Source of the DNA: a virus
Lineage: Duplodnaviria; Heunggongvirae; Uroviricota; Caudoviricetes
DNA length: 12,139 nucleotides
IMG/VR virus record: IMGVR_UViG_2541047682_000010
Strand: one strand, 5' to 3'
The notes under the pieces were generated by a model. It had not been told where the DNA came from. It made no database searches and was given only the letters and a program-made list of their open reading frames with translations. Shown in pieces: positions 1,567 to 11,905 of this stretch (the first letter of the stretch is position 1; the number at the start of each line of letters is the position of its first letter). Both the position numbers and the translations under genes were made by a program.

Positions 1567-4500
1567 ATGGGTAAAGGCAGCAGTAAGGGGCATACCCCGC
1601 GCGAAGCGAAGGACAACCTGAAATCCACGCAGTTACTGAGTGTGATCGATGCCATCAGCGAAGGACCGATAGAAGGTCCGGTGGATGGATTAAAAAGCGT
1701 GCTGCTGAACAGTACGCCGGTGCTGGACAGTGAAGGGAATACCAACATCGCCGGTGTCACGGTGGTGTTCCGGGCAGGTGAGCAGGAGCAGACACCGCCG
1801 GAGGGATTTGAATCCTCCGGATCCGAGACGGTGCTGGGTACGGAAGTGAAATATGACACGCCGATCACCCGCACCATCACGTCGGCAAACATCGACCGTC
1901 TGCGCTTTACCTTCGGTGTGCAGGCACTGGTGGAAACCACCTCAAAGGGGGACAGGAATCCATCGGAAGTCCGCCTGCTGGTTCAGATACAACGTAACGG
2001 TGGCTGGGTGACGGAAAAAGACATCACCATTAAGGGCAAAACCACGTCGCAGTATCTGGCCTCGGTGGTGGTGGATAACCTGCCGCCGCGCCCGTTTAAT
2101 ATCCGGATGCGCAGGATGACGCCGGACAGCACCACAGACCAGCTGCAGAACAAAACGCTCTGGTCGTCATACACCGAAATCATCGATGTGAAACAGTGCT
2201 ACCCGAACACGGCACTGGTCGGCGTGCAGGTGGACTCGGAACAGTTCGGCAGCCAGCAGGTGAGTCGTAATTATCATCTTCGCGGGCGCATTCTGCAGGT
2301 GCCGTCGAACTATAACCCGCAGAGGCGGCAATACAGCGGTATCTGGGACGGAACGTTTAAACCGGCATACAGCAACAACATGGCATGGTGTCTGTGGGAT
2401 ATGCTGACCCATCCGCGCTACGGCATGGGGAAACGTCTTGGTGCGGCGGATGTGGACAAATGGGCGCTGTATGTCATCGGACAGTATTGCGACCAGTCGG
2501 TGCCGGATGGTTTTGGTGGCACGGAGCCGCGCATCACCTGTAATGCGTACCTGACCACACAGCGCAAGGCGTGGGATGTGCTCAGTGATTTCTGCTCGGC
2601 GATGCGCTGTATGCCGGTATGGAACGGGCAGACGCTGACGTTCGTGCAGGACCGACCGTCGGATAAGGTGTGGACCTATAACCGCAGTAATGTGGTGATG
2701 CCGGATGATGGCGCGCCGTTCCGCTACAGCTTCAGCGCCCTGAAGGACCGCCATAATGCCGTTGAGGTGAACTGGATTGACCCGGATAACGGCTGGGAGA
2801 CGGCGACAGAGCTTGTTGAAGATACGCAGGCCATTCTCCGTTACGGTCGTAACGTCACGAAGATGGATGCCTTTGGCTGTACCAGTCGGGGGCAGGCACA
2901 CCGCGCCGGGCTGTGGCTGATTAAAACGGAGCTGCTGGAAACGCAGACCGTGGACTTCAGCGTGGGTGCTGAAGGGCTTCGCCATGTACCGGGCGATGTC
3001 ATTGAAATCTGCGATGATGACTATGCCGGTATCAGCACCGGCGGGCGAGTGCTGGCGGTGAACAGCCAGACCCGGACGCTGACGCTCGACCGTGAAATCA
3101 CGCTGCCATCCTCCGGTACCACGCTGATAAGCCTGGTTGACGGAAGTGGCAATCCGGTCAGCGTGGAGGTTCAGTCCGTCACCGACGGCGTGAAGGTAAA
3201 AGTGAGCCGTGTTCCTGACGGTGTTGCTGAATACAGCGTATGGGGGCTGAAGCTGCCGACGCTGCGCCAGCGACTGTTCCGCTGCGTGAGTATCCGTGAG
3301 AACGACGACGGCACGTATGCCATCACCGCCGTGCAGCATGTGCCGGAAAAAGAGGCCATCGTGGATAACGGAGCGCACTTTGACGGCGACCAGAGCGGCA
3401 CGGTGAATGGTGTCACGCCGCCAGCGGTGCAGCACCTGACCGCCGAAGTCACCGCAGACAGCGGGGAATATCAGGTGCTGGCGCGCTGGGACACGCCGAA
3501 GGTGGTGAAGGGCGTGAGCTTCCTGCTCCGTCTGACCGTAACAGCGGATGACGGCAGTGAGCGGCTGGTCAGCACGGCCCGGACGGCGGAAACCACTTAC
3601 CGCTTCAGGCAGCTGGCGCTGGGGCGTTACACGCTGACGGTCCGGGCGGTAAATGCCCGGGGACAGCAGGGCGATCCGGCGTCGGTATCGTTCCGGATTG
3701 CCGCACCGGCAGCGCCGTCTCGGATTGAGCTGACACCGGGCTATTTTCAGATAACCGCCACGCCACATCTTGCGGTTTATGACCCGACGGTACAGTTTGA
3801 GTTCTGGTTCTCGGAAAAACGGATTGCGGATATCAGGCAGGTTGAAACCACAGCCCGCTATCTTGGCACGGCGCTGTACTGGATAGCTGCCAGTATCAAT
3901 ATCAGGCCGGGCCATGATTATTATTTTTACGTTCGCAGTGTGAACACCGTTGGCAAATCGGCATTCGTGGAGGCTGTTGGTCGGGCGAGCGATGATGCGG
4001 AAGGTTACCTGGATTTTTTCAAAGGCCAGATAACCGAATCCCATCTTGGCAAGGAGCTGCTGGAAAAAGTCGAGCTGACGGAGGATAACGCCAGCAAACT
4101 GGAGGAGTTTTCGAAAGAGTGGAAGGACGCCAGTGATAAGTGGAATGCCATGTGGGGCGTCAAAATTGAGCAGACCAAAGACGGCAAACATTATGTCGCG
4201 GGTATTGGCCTCAGCATGGAGGACACGGAGGAAGGCAAACTGAGCCAGTTCCTGGTTGCCGCTAACCGTATCGCGTTTATTGATCCGTCTAATGGCAACA
4301 CAAGACCAATGTTTGTTGGTCAGGGCGATCAGATATTCATGAACGACGTGTTCCTGAAACGCCTGACGGCTCCGACCATTACCAGCGGCGGTAATCCTCC
4401 GGCATTTTCCCTGACACCGGATGGGCGGCTGACGGCGAAAAATGCCGATATCAGCGGTAACGTGAATGCGAACTCCGGGACGCTCAACAACGTCACGATT

Positions 4501-5682: not shown

Positions 5683-6242
5683 GTGGAGTGGATATGGCAG
5701 CAGTAAAAATCTCAGGTGTGCTGAAAGATGGTGCGGGAAAACCAATACAGAACTGCACTATTCAACTGAAGGCAAAGCGTAACAGCACCACGGTACTGGT
5801 GAACACGGTGGCCTCTGAAAATCCGGATGAAGCCGGGCGTTACAGCATGGATGTTGAGTATGGTCAGTACAGCGTCACCCTGCTGGTTGAAGGTTTTCCG
5901 CCTTCACATGCCGGGACCATTACCGTCTATGAAGGTTCCAGACCAGGTACGCTGAATGATTTTCTCGGTGCCATGACGGAAGATGATGTCATGCCGGAGG
6001 CATTGCGTCGTTTTGAGGCAATGGTGGAAGAAGCGGCACGCAACGCCGAAGCCGCCTCTCAGAGCGCAGCAGCGGCAAAGAAATCCGAAACTGCAGCGGC
6101 ATCATCGAAGAACGCGGCGAAAACCTCAGAAACAAATGCAGCTAACAGCGCACAGGCGGCAGCGTCCTCGCAGACTGCATCGGCAAACTCCGCGACAGCA
6201 GCCAAAAAATCAGAAACCAACGCGAAAAATAGCGAGACAGCC

Positions 6243-6382
6243 GCAAAGACGAGCGAAACCAACGCAAAGTCCAGCCAGACGGCAGCGAAAACAAGCGAAA
6301 CGAATGCCAAAGCCAGTGAAACTGCGGCAAAAAACAGCCAGGTTGCAGCAGCCCAAAGCGAGAGCGCGGCAGCCGGTTCTGC
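6243..6382 (+). repeat. Direct repeat copy 1 (about 140 bp) inside the stf shaft coding region
   Basis: Near-identical to 6432-6571, offset 189 bp (63 codons). Encodes AKTSETNAKSSQTAAKTSETNAKASETAAKNSQ.AAAQSESAAAGS. Confidence 0.75.
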
Positions 6383-6431
6383 GACTTCAGCAGCTGGATC
6401 AGCAACTGCTGCGGCTAACAGCCAGAAAGCT

Positions 6432-6571
6432 GCGAAGACGAGTGAAACTAACGCAAAGTCCAGCCAGACGGCAGCGAAGACCAGCGAAACGAATGCCAAA
6501 GCCAGCGAAACTGCGGCGAAAAACAGTCAGGATGCAGCAGCCCAAAGCGAGAGTGCTGCAGCTGGTTCTGC
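6432..6571 (+). repeat. Direct repeat copy 2 (about 140 bp) inside the stf shaft coding region
   Basis: Near-identical to 6243-6382; same reading frame and same peptide repeat. Confidence 0.75.
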
Positions 6572-7227
6572 AAGCGCGGCGGCTGCTTCTGCCACTGCAT
6601 CAGCCAACAGTCAAAAAGCAGCAAAAACCAGTGAAACCAATGCAAAGACAAGCGAGACTGCAGCGGCGAACTCGGCGAAAGCATCCGCTGCAAGCCAGAC
6701 CGCTGCAAAAGCAAGTGAAGACGCAGCCAGAGAGTATGCAAGCCAGGCAGCAGATCCGTATAAATATGTCTTACAGCCGCTGCCTGATGTGTGGATACCG
6801 TTTAACGATTCACTGGATATGATTACGGGCTTTTTGCCATCATATAAAAAGATTGTTATTGGTGACGACGAAATAACGATGCCTGGCGACAAGATTGTTA
6901 AGTTTAAACGTGCATCGAAAGCAACCTATATTAACAAATCTGGTGTGCTGACAGAGGCTGCCATTGATGAGCCACGATTTGAACGTGATGGCCTGCTTAT
7001 TGAGGGGCAAAGAACTAATCTTCTGCTTAATTCAACAAATCCATCTAAATGGAATAAGTCAGGCAATCTGGAACTCACAGAAATATCCACGGATTCTTTT
7101 AATTTTACTTATGGGAGATTTACTGTAAAAGATACTCTTATTGGTCAGACAAGTGCTATTAATATCGTAACGATTTCTGGCAGTAAAGGGTTTGATGTCA
7201 CAGGTGATGAAAAATATGTGACCATTT

Positions 7228-7232: not shown

Positions 7233-7243
7233 TGGATTTGCCC

Positions 7244-8149
7244 CTATATTTCCAGACACCTGTTATCACTTAACCCATTACTGGCTTGCTGCCGCAGATA
7301 TTCCCGTGGCGAGCGATAACCCAGTGCACTATGCGGATGCCATTCGTTATAATGCTCGAACGCCTCTGCAAGGTTCTTTGCTGCCGTTAACCCGTCTGGT
7401 TTGGGCATGACACTGATGTAGTCACGCTTTATCGTTTTCACGAAGCTCTCTGCTATGCCGTTACTCTCCGGACTCCGCACCGCCGTGCTCTTCGGTTCAA
7501 GCCCCAACATCCGGGCAAACTGCCGTGTTTCATTAGCCCGGTAGCATGAACCATTATCCGTCAGCCACTCTACTGGAGACGCCGGAAGCTCGTTGCCGAA
7601 GCGGCGTTCCACCGCTCCCAGCATGACGTCCTGTACTGTTTCACTGTTGAAGCCGCCCGTAGTGACCGCCCAGTGCAGTGCCTCACGGTCACAGCAGTCC
7701 AGCGCGAACGTGACTCGCAGTTTTTCTCCGTTATCACAGCGGAACTCGAACCCGTCAGAGCACCATCGCTGATTACTTTCTTTCACAGCCACTCTGCCTG
7801 TATGTGCCCGTTTCGATGGCGGTACAGCAGGTTTTCGCTCAAGCAACAGCGCATTCTGGCGCATGATCCGGTAAACACGTTTGGCATTGATCGCAGGCAT
7901 ACCATCAAGTTCTGCCTGTCTGCGAAGCAGCGCCCATACCCGACGATAACCATACGTGGGCAGCTCTCCGATAACATGGTGTATACGGAGAAGCACATCC
8001 GTATCATCAGTGTGACGACTGCGGCGGCCATCCATCCAGTCATCGGTTCGTCTGAGAATGACGTGCAACTGCGCACGCGACACCCGGAGACAACGGCTGA
8101 CTAAGCTTACTCCCCATCCCCGGGCAATAAGGGCGCGTGCGCTATCCAC
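7244..8149 (-). CDS. insD: IS2 transposase OrfB (InsD; DDE integrase-like catalytic domain), 301 aa
   Basis: Translation [23 protein letters not shown]...[12 protein letters not shown] is recognised as IS2 InsD. It overlaps insC by 43 nt, where an A6G slippery run (CAAAAAAG on the - strand, about 8149-8156) is the known site of programmed -1 frameshifting that produces the OrfAB transposase. Confidence 0.9.
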
Positions 8150-8472
8150 TTTTTTGCCCGTCCATATTCAACGGCTTCTTTGAGGAGTTCATTTTCCATC
8201 GTTTTCTTGCCGAGCAGGCGCTGGAGTTCTTTAATCTGCTTCATGGCGGCAGCAAGTTCAGAGGCAGGAACAACCTGTTCTCCGGCGGCGACAGCAGTAA
8301 GACTTCCTTCCTGGTATTGCTTACGCCAGAGAAATAACTGGCTGGCTGCCACACCGTGTTGCCGGGCAACGAGGGAGACCGTCATCCCTGGTTCAAAGCT
8401 CTGCTGAACAATTGCGATCTTTTCCTGTGTGGTACGCCGTCTGCGTTTCTCCGGTCCTAAGACATCAATCAT
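8107..8472 (-). CDS. insC: IS2 OrfA (InsC; helix-turn-helix regulator and transposase N-terminal part), 121 aa
   Basis: Translation [56 protein letters not shown]... is recognised as IS2 InsC. The ORF track gives an extended 136-aa frame from 8517; the canonical start is the internal Met. Confidence 0.9.
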
Positions 8473-8563
8473 CTGCTCTCCAATGACTAGTCTAAAAACT
8501 AGTATTAAGACTATCACTTAAATAAGTGATATTGGTTGTCTGGAGATTCAGGGGGCCAGTCTA

Positions 8564-8568
8564 CATGC
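8564..8568. repeat. IS2 target-site duplication, right copy (CATGC)
   Basis: Identical to 7228-7232. Confidence 0.85.
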
Positions 8569-9407
8569 CGTGTAAGAAGTGATGTTGAAAATATAAGGTG
8601 TCGTTTAAGATTTGAACACCATGATGGTTATACTTACACTTTTTTGGGAGATGCTTACCTCAATTTATCAACACTTGTAATTGATAAAACTGGTACTGCT
8701 GCAGACCGTATTATTGCAAAGGCTGTAAAAGATGAGGTTACTGGTTGGATTTTCTATCAGGCTACAATTAATGCACTAGATACAGAGAGCATGATTGGTG
8801 CGATGGTTCAATACGCTCCTGTAAAAGGTTCAGGTACAGCATCTGGAGACTATCTGGATATCGCAACTCCACAAGTGGAAGGTGGATCAAGTGCTTCGTC
8901 ATTTATTGTAACTGATATAACTGCAAGCACTCGCGCAAGCGATATGGTGACAGTCCCAATCAAGAATAACCTTTATAATCTTCCTTTTACGGTTCTTTGT
9001 GAGGTACATAAGAACTGGTATAAAACGCCAAATGCAGCACCGCGTGTTTTTGATACCGGCGGTCATCAAACCGGAGCGGCTATTATTCTTGGCTTCGGTC
9101 GTTCAACAGATTACGACGGATTTCCTTATTGTGATATAGGTTTGGCTAACAGACGGGTAAACGAAAACGCATCGCTTGAAAAAATGGTTATGGGGATGCG
9201 TGTAAAGTCAGATCAGTCTACGTGCTCAGTAAGTAACGGGCGTATATCCAGCGAAAAGAAAGCCACATGGTCCTATATTCAGAACTCCGCAATTATCCGT
9301 ATTGGAGGCCAGACTACAGCCGGGTTGCGTCATTTATTTGGTCATGTCAGGAATTTCAGAATATGGCACAAGGCATTGACTGATGCTCAGATGGGGGAGT
9401 CAATCTA

Positions 9408-9689
9408 ATGAAAGATTTAACACTCAAATTTGCAGACAGGGCCGACTTTTCGGCCTTTATGGATAGCATTGGCTATTATGATGACGAGTCGATGCAGGAT
9501 GATATTCTTATTGACGTGATAGGTAACGTGTACAAAGAAACCGGAGAACTGACTGAAGATGGCGAACCGGTATGTGTTAAGGAAGATGGATATTTTGTAA
9601 ACGTGCGCATCATTAATGATGCAAAAAAATCGTTAATATTCGATGAATACGCGGTTGTAGTTGAACATCAACTTCGTGGCTGGATGTGA
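9408..9689 (+). CDS. Hypothetical small acidic protein (93 aa), translationally coupled to stf
   Basis: The ATG overlaps the stf stop (TAATG). GGGGAG lies 9 nt upstream. Low G+C like the distal stf domain. Asp/Glu-rich. No family recognised. Confidence 0.6.
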   Translation: MKDLTLKFADRADFSAFMDSIGYYDDESMQDDILIDVIGNVYKETGELTEDGEPVCVKEDGYFVNVRIINDAKKSLIFDEYAVVVEHQLRGWM

Positions 9690-9698
9690 GGGAGACAA

Positions 9699-10403
9699 AT
9701 GGCTACATCGACAGTAATTCCAGGAGACATCACCACGTTAAAGGGAGATGTCAGTAAAGCCAAGGAAGATATTTCCTCAATTAACGGAAAAGTATCAACG
9801 CTTCAGGCTGATATGACCAGTGCAAAGCAGGATATCAGCACCAGATACACAAAAACTGAAGTTGATAATAAGCTGAAAAACAAACTGGAAGTGAACGCTC
9901 TGGAAAGCGGTCGTTATGGTGGAGATTTTTACCCGTTGACTGGCCGTGAAGCGTTTTATTTGTGGGGATTGGGCACGACTACAGCGGCGGCAAACCTTTA
10001 TCTTAATCCTGACCCCGCAATTTCGTCTGTGCTGCGGTCAACATCGTCTATCCGCTATAAACATTCAGTAGAGACAATAGATTCAGAGCACGCCGATCTC
10101 ATTTTCAGGATGCGCCCTGTGTGGTACAGGTCACAATGCGAAAATGACAGGCGTGACTGGGGATTCTACGGATTGATTGCCGAGGAAGTAGGAGAAATTG
10201 CCCCTCAGTTTGTACACTGGCGACCAGCTAACGAAGATGATGCACCGGAAGCTATTTCCAGCAATGGCCTTGTTGCCGAAGGTGTAATGTACGAACGTCT
10301 GGTTGTTCCACTGATTCACCATATCCAGAAGCTGACTGAAAGAGTTGATGAACTTGAGTCAGAATTAAAGTTGTTATCCGTTTCCCGAAGCGATATCGGA
10401 TAA
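9699..10403 (+). CDS. Tail-fibre-related protein with a coiled-coil N-terminus and a C-terminal peptidase-S74-like intramolecular-chaperone domain (234 aa)
   Basis: GGGAG lies 6 nt before the ATG. The C-terminal 120 residues carry the characteristic S74 pattern: SSIRYKHSVETID (compare SDxRxKxNI), then RPVWYR, then GLIAEEVGEIAPQFV, then MYERLVVPLIHHIQKLTERVDELESEL. The N-terminus has heptad-like repeats (DITTLKGDVSKAKEDISSINGKVSTLQADMTSAKQDIS). Confidence 0.75.
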   Translation: MATSTVIPGDITTLKGDVSKAKEDISSINGKVSTLQADMTSAKQDISTRYTKTEVDNKLKNKLEVNALESGRYGGDFYPLTGREAFYLWGLGTTTAAANLYLNPDPAISSVLRSTSSIRYKHSVETIDSEHADLIFRMRPVWYRSQCENDRRDWGFYGLIAEEVGEIAPQFVHWRPANEDDAPEAISSNGLVAEGVMYERLVVPLIHHIQKLTERVDELESELKLLSVSRSDIG

Positions 10404-10413
10404 AGGAGGAGTA

Positions 10414-10707
10414 ATGGATATAACACCTTTCCTTCATGCGCTTTGTGCTGTGGCTGCGCAGCTACTGATTGGTCTTTTTACCGGGAACTGGGCTTACGGG
10501 GCGATAGCTGGTTGTACGTTCTTCATTGCGCGTGAACACACCCAGGCAGAATATCGCTGGATTGAAATGTTCGGGCATGGCAAGCGAATGAATATGCCGT
10601 GGTGGGGCGGTTTTGATCCGCGCGCGTGGGATGTGGCAAGCCTGATGGATTTTGCTGTGCCGGTGGTGGCGTGTCTGCTGGTCTGGCTGTTGGTTAATCG
10701 TGGGTGA
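10414..10707 (+). CDS. Hypothetical small membrane protein (97 aa, two to three predicted transmembrane segments)
   Basis: Strong RBS AAGGAGG 7 nt before the ATG. Hydrophobic stretches FLHALCAVAAQLLIGLF, AYGAIAGCTFFIA and FAVPVVACLLVWLLV. G+C is similar to the phage backbone, not the low-GC cassette. Confidence 0.55.
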   Translation: MDITPFLHALCAVAAQLLIGLFTGNWAYGAIAGCTFFIAREHTQAEYRWIEMFGHGKRMNMPWWGGFDPRAWDVASLMDFAVPVVACLLVWLLVNRG

Positions 10708-10717
10708 AAAAAGGTGA

Positions 10718-10837
10718 GCTGTATATGCAACGGAGGAAGAAACCTCGTTGCTGGAAGCCTGGAAGAAGTATCGGGTGTTGCTGAACCGTGTTGATACGTC
10801 AACTGCACAGGATATTGAATGGCCAGCACTGCCGTAG
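10718..10837 (+). pseudogene. tfa: 3' remnant (39 codons) of the tail fibre assembly gene tfa
   Basis: The frame opens right after a TGA at 10715-10717 and reads [39 protein letters not shown]-stop. This matches the conserved C-terminus of lambda-type Tfa as I recall it (..[30 protein letters not shown]..). There is no start codon and no N-terminal Tfa domain. Confidence 0.7.
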
Positions 10838-10934
10838 GGTAAAACATATAAATTCTATAATTAGATGTATCTTTCCATTTACGGCAAGGAAGGGGGCTTG
10901 GAAGACGTAAAGCATCTCACACCGAGATTATTTT

Positions 10935-11525
10935 TTATATGTCAGGTGTCTGAAGTTTTGCTTTGGCTCTTAAAATGGTTTGCCGCGAGGTTTTGAATTC
11001 CCGGGCAATGGCACTTATACTTACACCTGACTTAATTCGTTCGAATACCACCTGTTTCTGTTCTTCATTTAACACAGGTGGTCGACCAAAACGTTTCCCT
11101 GCGCCCCGGGCTCTTACTATCCCGGAATGAGTGCGTTCAAGTAAAAGGTCTCGTTCAAATTCAGCGACTGCTGAAATTACTTGCATCATCATTTTCCCTG
11201 TTGGACTGGTCAGGTCAATGCCCCCCAATGCTAAGCAATGCACTCTGATACCTGTTTCGGTCAGTTGTTCCACTGTTTTCCTGATATCCATTGCATTACA
11301 ACCAAGGCGATCCAGTTTTGTCACAATCAATTGATCACCACATTTCAGACGAGCAAGCAACCGGTTAAAACCAGGACGCTCACTGGTTGCTGCTGAGCCG
11401 CTAATGTGTTCTTCGATTATTTGCTGAGGTTTGATTTTAAAACCTGCACTTTCGATTTCCCGGCGTTGATTTTCGGTGGTCTGATCCAGCGTTGATATCC
11501 GACAGTAAGCAAAAATTCGAGACAT
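10935..11525 (-). CDS. pin: Serine recombinase (resolvase/invertase family, PinR/PinQ-like), 196 aa
   Basis: N-terminal catalytic motif YCRISTLDQ with the nucleophilic Ser, and a C-terminal helix-turn-helix ([20 protein letters not shown]). The sequence matches my recollection of the E. coli prophage PinR/PinQ proteins. Position next to tfa is as in Rac and Qin. Confidence 0.9.
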
Positions 11526-11905
11526 AGTGAGACTCTATACGAAATTGGTGTACATATCATAATGCATATCCAAAAATTATTTCGCTTATTATTGTACATA
11601 TTTGTATGTATACGTTCGAAAATAAACGAATTCGGATGCAGTCCCGTAATTTTGGTGTAACCAAAAATCGATTTTTTGAAAAATGGCTTTAACTCGGTTT
11701 GTTTTTCGAACTCCGGGCGGACTCGAGGAAGACGAATAATAGTGTTGTATGTTATTTCAACCAGATTTTAAGTTGTTTGGTCGTGGAAAAGTGGAGCAAA
11801 ATGTTGTTAAAGTGGAAAAATGGTAAAAAAAGTAGGTTGTTGCGGAATAACGTAGTTGTTGATATTTTTTTAATGCATTGAAAAATTATTTTTCAGGGGG
11901 GGGTA
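11526..11905. promoter_or_regulatory. AT-rich intergenic region upstream of pin: presumed pin promoter, with short direct repeats (TGTACATAT at about 11548 and 11595) and a G8 homopolymer at 11896-11903
   Basis: No convincing ORF. Very AT-rich. Lies 5' of pin on the - strand and 3' of the small - strand ORF. I could not place -35/-10 elements with confidence. Confidence 0.3.

What the first reader, a model, noticed from the sequence alone, without database searches (positions are those of the whole stretch)
10414..10707. Small membrane protein beside the receptor-binding genes: candidate superinfection-exclusion or conversion factor
A 97-aa protein with two or three hydrophobic helices and a strong RBS sits between the fibre cassette and the tfa remnant. 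Phages often place receptor-masking or exclusion genes next to their receptor-binding protein genes (Cor in phi80/HK022/N15, Llp in T5). That is an analogy by position only; I see no sequence similarity to those proteins.
Basis: inference. Interest (0 to 1): 0.5.

Follow-up and report, generated by a model that had tools for sequence, protein, structure and literature searches.

The report
Conserved phage membrane protein trailing receptor-binding genes
This is a real, intact gene for a small three-helix membrane protein of unknown function that sits just after the host-recognition genes in many unrelated phages and occurs in about a third of complete E. coli genomes, so it is a good but untested candidate for a factor that protects infected or lysogenic cells from further phage attack.

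Summary
Window 10414-10707 (+) is an intact 97-codon gene with an AAGGAGG ribosome-binding site. It lies 10 nt after an S74-type tail-fibre gene and 19 nt before a 36-codon tfa remnant.

- **Selection:** it is under purifying selection (dN/dS 0.15-0.2).
- **Distribution:** it is found in 1906 of 5426 complete E. coli genomes. Functional phages HannyBb, Tritos and 2G7b carry an identical protein, and phage 21 a 96% identical one.
- **Structure:** AlphaFold2 gives a confident three-helix membrane bundle (pLDDT 92).
- **Family:** it belongs to PHROG 1443 (unknown function). It has no match in Pfam, NCBIfam, PADLOC or PDB.
- **Conservation:** the transmembrane helices vary, but a membrane-interface motif (H8, R40-E41, Q44-A45-E46, W72, P83) is nearly invariant from E. 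coli to Sphingomonas.
- **Position:** it directly follows receptor-binding genes of at least four unrelated types, in lambda-, P22-, P2- and T1-like phages and in a DGR cassette. In P22-like coliphages it fills the tailspike-integrase slot where eps34 carries gtrABC.
- **Dispensability:** it has decayed to a pseudogene in virulent HC6-like phages.
- **Non-phage copies:** chromosomal copies exist in Sphingomonadales.

This fits an accessory exclusion or conversion factor acting at the inner membrane. It does not fit a receptor-specific mask like Cor or Llp. The function remains untested.

The parts
10403..10409 (+). Ribosome-binding site AAGGAGG, 4 nt before the ATG; it overlaps the last base of the stop codon of the upstream fibre gene (10401-10403)
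   Evidence: Read directly from the sequence
10414..10707 (+). Coding sequence of the 97-aa membrane protein (PHROG 1443 family; identical to WP_000355601.1 of E. coli S88); stop TGA at 10705-10707
10423..10482 (+). Helix 1 / transmembrane segment 1 (residues 4-23), with near-invariant His8 and the frequently conserved Gln16
   Evidence: Hydropathy, AF2 model, conservation
10489..10572 (+). Helix 2 (residues 26-53): a hydrophobic, Gly-rich membrane part (26-39) continuing into the polar conserved stretch R40-E41-x-x-Q44-A45-E46-Y47-R48-W49
   Evidence: AF2 model, alignments A1 and A2
10531..10632 (+). Conserved hydrophilic region (residues 40-73), including the Trp/Gly-rich MPWWGGFD loop and invariant Trp72. 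This is the functional core of the family. No non-synonymous change against phage 21 despite 3 synonymous changes
10633..10701 (+). Helix 3 / transmembrane segment 3 (residues 74-96), with Asp79 (37 of 47 distant members) and Pro83 (46 of 47)
9699..10403 (+). Context: 234-aa distal tail-fibre protein with a C-terminal Peptidase_S74 intramolecular chaperone domain, immediately upstream (10-nt gap)
9408..9689 (+). Context: 93-aa acidic protein (phrog_1361). In phage 21 its homologue lies directly upstream of the membrane-protein gene
8564..9408 (+). Context: 3' part of the side-tail-fibre gene (phrog_1419, with a weak ConA-like/Laminin_G_3 C-terminal match, E=0.043), cut off from its 5' part by the IS
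7233..8563 (-). Context: 1331-bp IS3-family (IS2-like) insertion with a 5-bp target duplication, interrupting the side-tail-fibre gene upstream of the finding
   Evidence: Comparison with E. coli S88; transposase domains HTH_Tnp_1 and rve
10727..10837 (+). Context: 36-codon 3' remnant of a tail-fibre-assembly (tfa) gene
   Evidence: RefSeq annotation of the collinear S88 locus; sequence read
10935..11525 (-). Context: Pin-like serine DNA invertase (Resolvase + HTH_7), convergent with the tfa remnant

Best explanation
**What is shown.** This is an intact, selected gene for an ~11-kDa integral membrane protein made of three helices. It belongs to the uncharacterised family PHROG 1443. It is non-structural and dispensable for virion formation. 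It moves through phage genomes as the gene that trails the receptor-binding module.

**What is inferred.** In this prophage it is most likely co-transcribed and co-translated with the late tail-fibre genes and inserts into the cytoplasmic membrane. The variable helices would serve as the anchor. A near-invariant cluster of polar residues sits at one membrane interface: His8, Arg40-Glu41, Gln44, Glu46, Trp72 and Asp79, together with the Trp/Gly-rich loop. This cluster would bind or modify an envelope component that is conserved across Proteobacteria.

**Proposed role.** My best reading is that this makes the infected or lysogenic cell a poor target for further phage. It could do so by blocking genome entry at the inner membrane, or by lowering the display of surface glycans. 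That is superinfection exclusion or self-protection acting at the inner membrane, not the masking of one specific outer-membrane receptor.

The confidence given applies to this functional reading. The identity of the gene as a conserved, non-structural membrane protein of PHROG 1443 is close to certain.
For: - **Real, selected gene.** phrog_1443 match E=5.8e-59. dN/dS 0.15-0.2 with third-position bias. Present in 1906 of 5426 E. coli genomes. Identical protein in functional phages HannyBb, Tritos and 2G7b; 96% identical in phage 21.
- **Membrane protein.** Hydropathy. AF2 three-helix bundle, pLDDT 92.4.
- **Invariant interface motif with variable helices.**. No non-synonymous change in codons 40-74 against phage 21.
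- **Trails RBP genes of unrelated kinds:**
  - S74 fibres in E. coli lambdoids, in HC6 and in a Desulfovibrio prophage.
  - ConA-like fibres in phage 21, Comamonas and Chelativorans.
  - P22-type tailspikes without S74 in Gally and JEP4.
  - Fibres followed by a tfa-annotated or DUF4376 gene in phiHAP-1 and Halomonas.
  - A Leclercia fibre.
  - A putative DGR variable protein, just before Avd and the reverse transcriptase.
- **Conversion slot.** In P22-like coliphages the gene lies between tailspike and int, where eps34 has gtrCBA (PMC2629481). In Gally a terminator and a promoter-like site separate it from the tailspike gene.
- **Precedent.** Exclusion factors are encoded at RBP loci (PMC11990801).
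- **Not morphogenetic.** It is a frameshifted pseudogene in HC6-like phages that keep the fibre intact.
- **Useful beyond lysogeny.** An intact copy is present in the 237-kb Aeromonas phage PS1.
Against: - The loop is far more conserved than is usual for exclusion proteins that co-evolve with phages or receptors.
- The same allele follows different fibres.
- Chromosomal, non-prophage homologues in Sphingomonadales, and probably in Leclercia, suggest a cellular function that need not concern phages.
- In two lineages the gene follows a terminase-like gene rather than an RBP gene.
- No consensus promoter or terminator of its own in this window. The slot after the RBP is also a general cargo site, as sitABCD in phage 21 shows.
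- Membrane orientation is unresolved, because Lys/Arg counts conflict between subfamilies.
Confidence: 0.35

Rival explanations
1. It is an envelope-glycan conversion factor. The protein would be a small enzyme, or an inhibitor or regulator of an inner-membrane step in the assembly of undecaprenyl-linked surface polysaccharide or LPS (ligase, polymerase, flippase or carrier lipid). This would change or reduce the glycans that fibres and tailspikes bind. It would be analogous in purpose to gtrABC/oac or to small inhibitors of O-antigen polymerase.
For: It occupies the tailspike-int slot of P22-like coliphages, where eps34 carries gtrCBA. It follows glycan-directed RBPs: tailspikes, a pectate-lyase-like S74 spike in Desulfovibrio, and ConA-like lectin/glucanase-type fibres. 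The near-invariant His/Glu/Gln/Glu/Asp cluster at a membrane interface looks like a catalytic or ligand-binding site. A generic target would explain why the loop does not vary with RBP type. Some Sphingomonadales neighbours are envelope- or lipid-related: a PhyH-like dioxygenase in at least five loci, cyclopropane-fatty-acid synthase, OMP beta-barrels and a Wza-like exporter.
Against: There is no similarity to any glycosyltransferase, acyltransferase, GtrA-like flippase or phosphatase family. At 97 aa it is very small for an enzyme unless it oligomerises. Which side of the membrane the motif faces is unknown. The neighbour associations in Sphingomonadales may be simple synteny.
Confidence: 0.2
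2. It is a cargo gene that benefits the host and has nothing to do with phage resistance. It would be a small membrane protein with a cellular role, such as ion or metal handling, membrane stress tolerance or regulation of a membrane complex. Phages would have picked it up and carry it in the variable slot at the end of the tail operon.
For: Stand-alone chromosomal copies in Sphingomonadales lie among housekeeping genes (LigA, FtsZ, NadA, ThiC, PNPase), with no phage families nearby. Five Leclercia genomes share a conserved locus, in one case next to a GNAT acetyltransferase. Loop conservation is very strong and host-independent. The slot after the fibre genes is a known cargo site, for example sitABCD in phage 21.
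Against: The gene is tightly linked to RBP genes even inside structural operons, not only at operon ends (phiHAP-1, Halomonas L146, the DGR cassette). Intact copies occur in a 237-kb jumbo phage. The family is rare overall, with 438 clusters among 1.84 billion representatives. Its context varies among related Sphingomonadales, which is typical of accessory genes rather than core genes.
Confidence: 0.2
3. It has a morphogenetic or virion-associated role. The membrane protein would help assemble, mature or attach the tail fibre or spike encoded just upstream, or would itself be packaged in the virion.
For: It follows fibre, spike or fibre-chaperone genes immediately, and is often translationally coupled (10-nt gap here, overlap in JEP4). 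A fibre / 93-aa protein / membrane-protein module recurs from E. coli to Comamonas.
Against: It follows RBPs of at least four unrelated architectures, including ones with their own chaperone (the S74 domain, tfa-annotated or DUF4376 genes). It is a decayed pseudogene in plaque-forming HC6-like phages whose fibre gene is intact. Lambda-type phages without it make side fibres using Tfa (established knowledge). Chromosomal copies have no phage genes nearby. Fibres fold in the cytoplasm, so a polytopic membrane protein is an unlikely chaperone.
Confidence: 0.08
4. It is a holin-like or lysis-timing protein. A small three-transmembrane protein with a short, often basic C-terminal tail has the build of a class I holin or antiholin.
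For: It has 97 aa and three predicted transmembrane helices. Many homologues have Arg-rich C-terminal tails. It is probably expressed late.
Against: It was not next to an endolysin in any context examined. Phage 21 has its own lysis genes elsewhere (established knowledge). The 34-residue, highly conserved loop is unlike holins. Chromosomal copies lie among housekeeping genes. Foldseek matches to holins are insignificant (E about 7).
Confidence: 0.04

Closest known systems
PHROG 1443 (uncharacterised phage protein family; includes phage 21 CPT_21_24, annotated 'putative membrane protein', and E. coli WP_000355601.1, annotated 'hypothetical protein')
   Same: The window protein matches the profile over its full length (residues 1-96 of 97, E=5.8e-59) and is 96-100% identical to members in functional lambdoid phages. 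The gene position is the same.
   Different: Nothing differs; this is a member. The family has no assigned function and no literature was found.
Cor (T1, phi80, N15, HK022) and Llp (T5): superinfection-exclusion lipoproteins encoded beside RBP genes
   Same: They are small accessory proteins encoded at the RBP locus and dispensable for virion assembly. The logic is to keep progeny or competitors from adsorbing to the producing cell (PMC11990801).
   Different: Cor and Llp are outer-membrane lipoproteins that each block one cognate receptor. This protein is a three-helix inner-membrane protein with no detectable homology to them. Its conserved part does not vary with RBP type. The 'IAGC' at residues 31-34 resembles a lipobox, but it lies 33 residues in, has no basic n-region, and the Cys is absent from most distant members.
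Inner-membrane exclusion proteins that block phage genome entry (T4 Imm, P22 SieA, HK97 gp15)
   Same: They are small integral cytoplasmic-membrane proteins encoded by phages. They act independently of the outer-membrane receptor, which would fit a conserved, RBP-independent loop. P22 SieA is described as necessary and sufficient for exclusion in PMC10883804 (abstract seen).
   Different: No sequence similarity was found: no Pfam or PHROG hit to any such family. The genomic position differs. No functional data exist for this family.
O-antigen conversion cassettes next to tailspike genes (gtrABC of P22 and eps34; oac of Sf6)
   Same: The locus is the same in P22-like phages, between tailspike and integrase. 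They also encode integral inner-membrane proteins, and they too have been exchanged between phage types and occur in chromosomes (PMC2629481).
   Different: This is a single 97-aa protein with no similarity to GtrA, GtrB, GtrC or acyltransferases. In most lineages it has the same orientation as the RBP gene and abuts it.

Membership tests
PHROG 1443 | Full-length match to the family profile | tested here: met
   E=5.8e-59, residues 1-96 against profile positions 1-96 of 97
PHROG 1443 | Family-wide conserved residues (H8, R40, E41, Q44, A45, E46, W72, P83) and three hydrophobic helices | tested here: met
   All are present in the window protein. Frequencies were counted in 47 distant members. 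AF2 gives helices 4-23, 26-53 and 74-96
Cor / Llp exclusion lipoproteins | Sequence homology to Cor or Llp families | tested here: not met
   The only PHROG hits are phrog_1443, phrog_34165 and an insignificant phrog_9191 (all 'unknown function'). There is no significant Pfam hit
Cor / Llp exclusion lipoproteins | Lipoprotein signal peptide with a lipobox Cys, giving outer-membrane lipoprotein localisation | tested here: not met
   IAGC(31-34) is lipobox-like, but the preceding 33 residues lack Lys/Arg and form a predicted helical hairpin. The Cys is present in 32 of 33 close members but is not the majority residue among 47 distant members. No dedicated lipoprotein predictor was available
Cor / Llp exclusion lipoproteins | Encoded adjacent to the RBP gene | tested here: met
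   Directly downstream of fibre or spike genes in many lineages
Cor / Llp exclusion lipoproteins | Inactivates the cognate receptor and blocks adsorption | not testable with these tools
   Needs expression and adsorption assays
Inner-membrane exclusion proteins (T4 Imm, P22 SieA, HK97 gp15) | Sequence homology | tested here: not met
   No Pfam, PHROG, NCBIfam or PADLOC match to any exclusion or defence family
Inner-membrane exclusion proteins (T4 Imm, P22 SieA, HK97 gp15) | Small integral cytoplasmic-membrane protein | tested here: met
   By prediction only: hydropathy and AF2 model
Inner-membrane exclusion proteins (T4 Imm, P22 SieA, HK97 gp15) | Blocks genome entry of superinfecting phage | not testable with these tools
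   Needs infection, DNA-entry or ion-efflux assays
O-antigen conversion modules (gtrABC, oac) | Homology to GtrA-like flippase, GtrB/GtrC glycosyltransferases or an O-acetyltransferase | tested here: not met
   No Pfam or NCBIfam hit
O-antigen conversion modules (gtrABC, oac) | Location between tailspike and integrase in P22-like phages | tested here: met
   Gally and JEP4; the gene order of eps34 (tailspike 19, gtrCBA 20-22, int 23) is taken from PMC2629481
Moron (independently transcribed insert in a phage operon) | Own promoter and terminator | tested here: inconclusive
   No consensus promoter or terminator around the gene in the window. In phage Gally a terminator (L159 3789-3809) and a promoter-like site (3826-3855) precede it. 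The scans are consensus matches only
Tail-fibre assembly chaperones (Tfa / Caudo_TAP / DUF4376) | Homology to the family, or a requirement for fibre assembly | tested here: not met
   No Pfam hit. The gene co-occurs with separate tfa-annotated or DUF4376 genes. It is a pseudogene in HC6-like phages that keep an intact fibre
Class I holins | Small three-TM protein encoded next to an endolysin | tested here: not met
   The architecture is compatible, but no endolysin neighbour was seen in any examined context

The most novel reading that the evidence does not exclude
PHROG 1443 is a previously unrecognised, widely distributed class of RBP-linked inner-membrane 'immunity' proteins. Its near-invariant His/Glu/Gln/Glu/Asp interface site would act catalytically or by tight binding on a universal envelope component, for example the undecaprenyl-linked glycan pathway or the inner-membrane route of genome entry. 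The cell would then become refractory to phages whatever receptor-binding protein they carry. The same module would have been domesticated as a chromosomal gene in Sphingomonadales and Leclercia, and recruited into a DGR tropism-switching cassette.
Probability: 0.25. Interest if true: 0.7.

Novelty: new variant of a known kind. Interest (0 to 1): 0.5.

Why it matters
About a third of complete E. coli genomes carry this gene, typically in two copies. It travels with the modules that set phage host range. If it does protect cells against phage, it would be a common, unannotated determinant of phage susceptibility. That would matter for phage-therapy host-range prediction and for engineering fibre-swapped phages, because fibre cassettes are usually moved together with the gene that follows them. 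The very strongly conserved interface motif points to a conserved envelope target that could be found with simple genetics. If it has no such effect, the family still marks a well-defined small membrane-protein fold with chromosomal relatives and no known function.

Tried and rejected
- **Remote homology.** Pfam gave only an insignificant PhoR N-terminal hit (E=0.059). NCBIfam and PADLOC gave none. A PDB sequence-profile search gave 0 hits.
- **Exhaustive profile search.** It found only stand-alone proteins of about 58-146 aa and no informative fusions.
- **Literature.** No paper mentions WP_000355601, phrog_1443 or FIG00639861. The phage 21 genome paper and the phage 21 coevolution preprint say nothing about the gene. 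A prophage sRNA paper that looked relevant concerns the cI region.
- **Specific partnership with S74 chaperone fibres.** Rejected. The gene also follows ConA-like fibres, P22-type tailspikes without S74, fibres followed by a tfa-annotated or DUF4376 gene, and a DGR variable protein.
- **Lipoprotein.** Rejected as a family trait.
- **Allele matched to RBP type.** Rejected. The identical protein follows a 234-aa fibre here and in S88, and 343-346-aa fibres in HannyBb and E. ruysiae.
- **Topology by the positive-inside rule.** Inconclusive. The conserved loop carries about 5.4 Lys/Arg against 0.6 in the turn plus C-tail in gamma and beta members. The alphaproteobacterial members have Arg-rich C-tails and basic turns.
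- **Technical limits.** The search for related loci with the divergent alignment A2 failed for lack of a conserved stretch. The viral-contig scan returned only near-identical E. coli loci. My ORF-based neighbour calling in high-GC loci is noisy, so only neighbours confirmed by profile hits are used.
Full report
**1. The observation.**
- The window is the tail end of an E. coli lambdoid prophage. In order it holds K/I/J-like genes, lom, a side-tail-fibre gene, further fibre genes, the finding, a tfa remnant, a Pin-like invertase and ydfK.
- It is collinear at about 98-99% identity with a prophage of E. coli S88. The one large difference is a 1331-bp insertion (annotation).
- The ORF at 10414-10707 (+) encodes 97 aa. 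AAGGAGG lies at 10403-10409. The upstream fibre gene ends at 10403, so the two genes are 10 nt apart.
- Hydropathy shows two strong hydrophobic segments (3-23 and 74-96) and one weaker segment (26-39), with a hydrophilic stretch at 40-73.
- The upstream 234-aa protein has a Peptidase_S74 intramolecular chaperone domain and tail-fibre PHROG matches.
- Downstream, 10727-10837 is the last 36 codons of a tail-fibre-assembly gene. RefSeq annotates it in S88 as a partial pseudogene.

**2. It is a real gene.**
- The protein matches phrog_1443 end to end (E=5.8e-59).
- The DNA is present in 1906 of 5426 complete E. coli genomes, with a median of two places per genome and up to seven.
- The identical protein is encoded by the isolated phages HannyBb, Tritos and 2G7b. 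Phage 21 has a 96% identical one (CPT_21_24, annotated 'putative membrane protein').
- Against diverged alleles (phage 21, Gally, JEP4, E. ruysiae) dN/dS is 0.15-0.20.
- Among 28 distinct DNA alleles, differences fall 177/43/11 on codon positions 3/1/2. The + frame is therefore the selected one, not the overlapping antisense ORF 10494-10847.

**3. Structure and conservation.**
- AlphaFold2 on 33 homologues gives a confident model (mean pLDDT 92.4, pTM 0.78). It has three helices, 4-23, 26-53 and 74-96, and a loop at 54-73.
- Among close relatives (57-96% identity to the window protein; Enterobacteriaceae, Aeromonas, Comamonas) the stretch AREHTQAEYRWI...R.NMPWWGGFD..W is almost invariant, while the helices vary.
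- Among 47 distant representatives (29-55% identity) E41 and W72 are invariant. H8, R40, Q44, A45, E46 and P83 are at 90% or more. D79 is in 37 of 47.
- From the up-down-up helix register I infer that H8, R40/E41 and D79 lie at the same depth, at one membrane interface. I could not check this against coordinates.
- Which side of the membrane that interface faces is unresolved. The conserved loop carries about 5.4 Lys/Arg against 0.6 in the turn plus C-tail in the sampled gamma and beta members. That would put the loop inside the cell. The alphaproteobacterial and Leclercia members, however, have Arg-rich C-tails and basic residues in the helix 1-2 turn, which argues the opposite.

**4. What it is not related to.**
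- Pfam, NCBIfam and PADLOC give no significant match.
- A PDB sequence-profile search gives none.
- BFVD gives nothing significant.
- An exhaustive HMM search of 1.84 billion representatives finds 438 clusters. The best 150 are all stand-alone proteins of about 58-146 aa, so no domain fusion offers a clue.
- I found no literature on the protein.

**5. Genomic context across phages: the main new evidence.** A family member lies directly after the receptor-binding module in many unrelated settings.
- **Lambdoid coliphages and prophages.** It follows S74 fibres, or the 92-93-aa phrog_1361 protein that follows a ConA-like fibre.
- **P22-like coliphages Gally and JEP4.** It follows a tailspike that lacks S74 and precedes the integrase.
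- **P2-like Halomonas phage phiHAP-1.** It lies between the gene annotated as tail-fibre assembly and the sheath gene.
- **A Halomonas prophage.** It follows a fibre, a 106-aa protein and a DUF4376 protein, and precedes an internal virion protein.
- **Comamonas and Chelativorans prophages.** It follows ConA-like fibres.
- **A Leclercia prophage.** It lies 21 nt after a 720-aa fibre.
- **A Desulfovibrio prophage.** It follows a 935-aa pectate-lyase-like spike with an S74 domain.
- **Comamonas nitrativorans and Pigmentiphaga.** It lies between a 383-aa tail-related protein and the Avd and reverse-transcriptase genes of a diversity-generating retroelement.
- **Virulent HC6-like siphoviruses.** An unannotated remnant sits right after an 859-aa S74 fibre.
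- **Exceptions.**
  - In the 237-kb Aeromonas phage PS1 and in one Desulfovibrio locus the gene follows a terminase-like gene.
  - In Aeromonas phage 4_4512 it lies among head and tail genes, after an unidentified 698-aa protein.

**6. What the context implies.**
- The gene follows receptor-binding proteins of at least four unrelated architectures, some with their own chaperones. It is therefore not a fold-specific assembly factor.
- In HC6-like phages the copy is frameshifted, carries a stop and has lost the RE..QAEYRWI core, while the fibre is intact. This indicates that the gene came in together with a fibre module and is dispensable for making infectious particles.
- In P22-like coliphages it fills the slot between tailspike and integrase. 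That is where eps34 carries its O-antigen conversion genes: tailspike is gene 19, gtrCBA are genes 20-22 and int is gene 23 (PMC2629481).
- In Gally an intrinsic terminator and a promoter-like site separate it from the tailspike gene. This is the layout of an independently expressed insert, though the scan matches are only consensus hits.
- In this window I find no promoter or terminator of its own. The 10-nt spacing suggests expression with the late fibre genes.
- The IS2-like element upstream could be polar on late transcription here (inference).
- Exclusion factors encoded at RBP loci are an established pattern: Cor of T1 and Llp of T5 disable the receptor so that progeny are not lost on debris (PMC11990801).

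**7. Evidence that complicates the exclusion reading.**
- The conserved loop does not vary with RBP type or host.
- The identical allele follows different distal fibres: 234 aa here and in S88, 343-346 aa in HannyBb and E. ruysiae. The protein therefore cannot be a receptor-specific mask of the Cor or Llp kind.
- Its target, if any, must be common to alpha-, beta- and gamma-proteobacteria and Desulfovibrio.
- In Sphingomonadales the homologues are stand-alone chromosomal genes. They lie next to LigA, PNPase, DAHP synthase, AMP nucleosidase, an aspartate-oxidase-like flavoprotein or a HerA-like ATPase.
- The wider flanks there include FtsZ, NadA, ThiC and COX1, with no phage families among the top hits.
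- At least five Sphingomicrobium or Sphingomonas loci have a divergently oriented PhyH-like dioxygenase.
- Five Leclercia genomes share one conserved locus, in one case next to a GNAT acetyltransferase.
- These copies could be domesticated phage genes. Their varying context among related genomes is typical of accessory genes. They could equally point to a cellular function that phages borrowed.

**8. Best explanation and rivals.** Confidence is high only for the identity of the gene: it encodes a conserved, non-structural inner-membrane protein of family PHROG 1443 that trails RBP modules. My ranking of the functional readings is:
- **Exclusion or self-protection factor (about 0.35).** It would act at the cytoplasmic membrane on a conserved envelope component, by blocking genome entry or by generally reducing what phages can bind.
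- **Envelope-glycan conversion enzyme or inhibitor (0.2).**
- **Host-benefit cargo unrelated to phage (0.2).**
- **Morphogenetic role (0.08).**
- **Holin-like role (0.04).**
All of these are inferences from position, architecture and conservation. None is shown.

**9. Novelty and interest.**
- The sequence family is already catalogued (PHROG 1443; 'hypothetical protein' in RefSeq), but it has no function and no literature.
- If it is an exclusion or conversion factor, it is a new family within a known functional kind, with an unusual property: strong conservation that is independent of the receptor-binding protein.
- It is common, short and cheap to test. I score interest at 0.5.

Noticed in passing
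window 7233-8563: A 1331-bp IS3-family (IS2-like) element on the minus strand, with a 5-bp target duplication, interrupts the side-tail-fibre gene. That gene is intact (792 aa) in E. coli S88. The prophage in this window therefore has a broken stf, and late transcription into the downstream fibre genes and the finding may be affected.
   Followed up: yes
window 6228-6665: The side-tail-fibre gene contains internal direct repeats: 249-bp stretches offset by 189 bp, 83% identical. They encode Ala/Ser/Thr/Lys-rich units of the SETNAK/TAAKTSE type.
   Followed up: partly
window 9408-9689; L001 5710-5988; L109 7432-7995: The 93-aa acidic protein (phrog_1361) recurs with the finding. In phage 21 its homologue is the gene directly upstream. 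In Comamonas a relative (phrog_18574) forms the N-terminal half of the 188-aa protein directly upstream. Together with a ConA-like fibre (phrog_1419/5939) this makes a three-gene module conserved from E. coli to Comamonas. Its role is unknown.
   Followed up: partly
window 10727-10837 and 10935-11525: A 36-codon tfa 3' remnant lies convergent with an intact Pin-like invertase gene, but there is no invertible fibre segment. This looks like the relic of an older Rac/e14-type invertible fibre cassette that was displaced by the present fibre module.
   Followed up: partly
L116 and L117, 6785-10054: In Comamonas nitrativorans and Pigmentiphaga humi a family member sits inside a diversity-generating retroelement cassette. 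It lies between a 383-aa tail-related (probably variable) protein and the Avd and reverse-transcriptase genes.
   Followed up: partly
L006 (phage HC6) 2940-3160: An unannotated, frameshifted pseudogene of the family lies right after the 859-aa S74 tail-fibre gene. The same partial match (query residues 41-93) is seen in related phages HC8A, ZCEC08, PBM-3 and Salmonella phage ST1UNAM.
   Followed up: yes
window 10494-10847 (minus strand): A 117-aa antisense ORF overlaps most of the finding. The substitution pattern (third-position bias in the + frame) indicates it is not the selected frame.
   Followed up: yes
L123, L127, L128, L131, L135, L140 (Sphingomicrobium/Sphingomonas): The chromosomal homologue is divergently adjacent to a ~385-aa protein. 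Five of the six give weak PhyH (Fe/2-oxoglutarate dioxygenase) matches. This may be mere synteny or a functional pairing.
   Followed up: partly
L096, L100, L102, L103, L106 (Leclercia): Five Leclercia genomes carry a family member at one conserved locus, followed by the same three genes of roughly 300-400, 426-471 and 498-524 aa. In L106 a GNAT acetyltransferase precedes it. This does not look like a prophage tail region. The neighbours were not identified.
   Followed up: partly
window 11839-11903: A segment of about 65 bp between the invertase region and ydfK does not align with the otherwise collinear E. coli S88 locus, which has only 5 bp here.
   Followed up: no
L001 6386-9835 (phage 21): In phage 21 the gene is followed on the opposite strand by the sitABCD iron/manganese transporter operon. 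This shows that the position after the fibre module is also a general cargo site.
   Followed up: no
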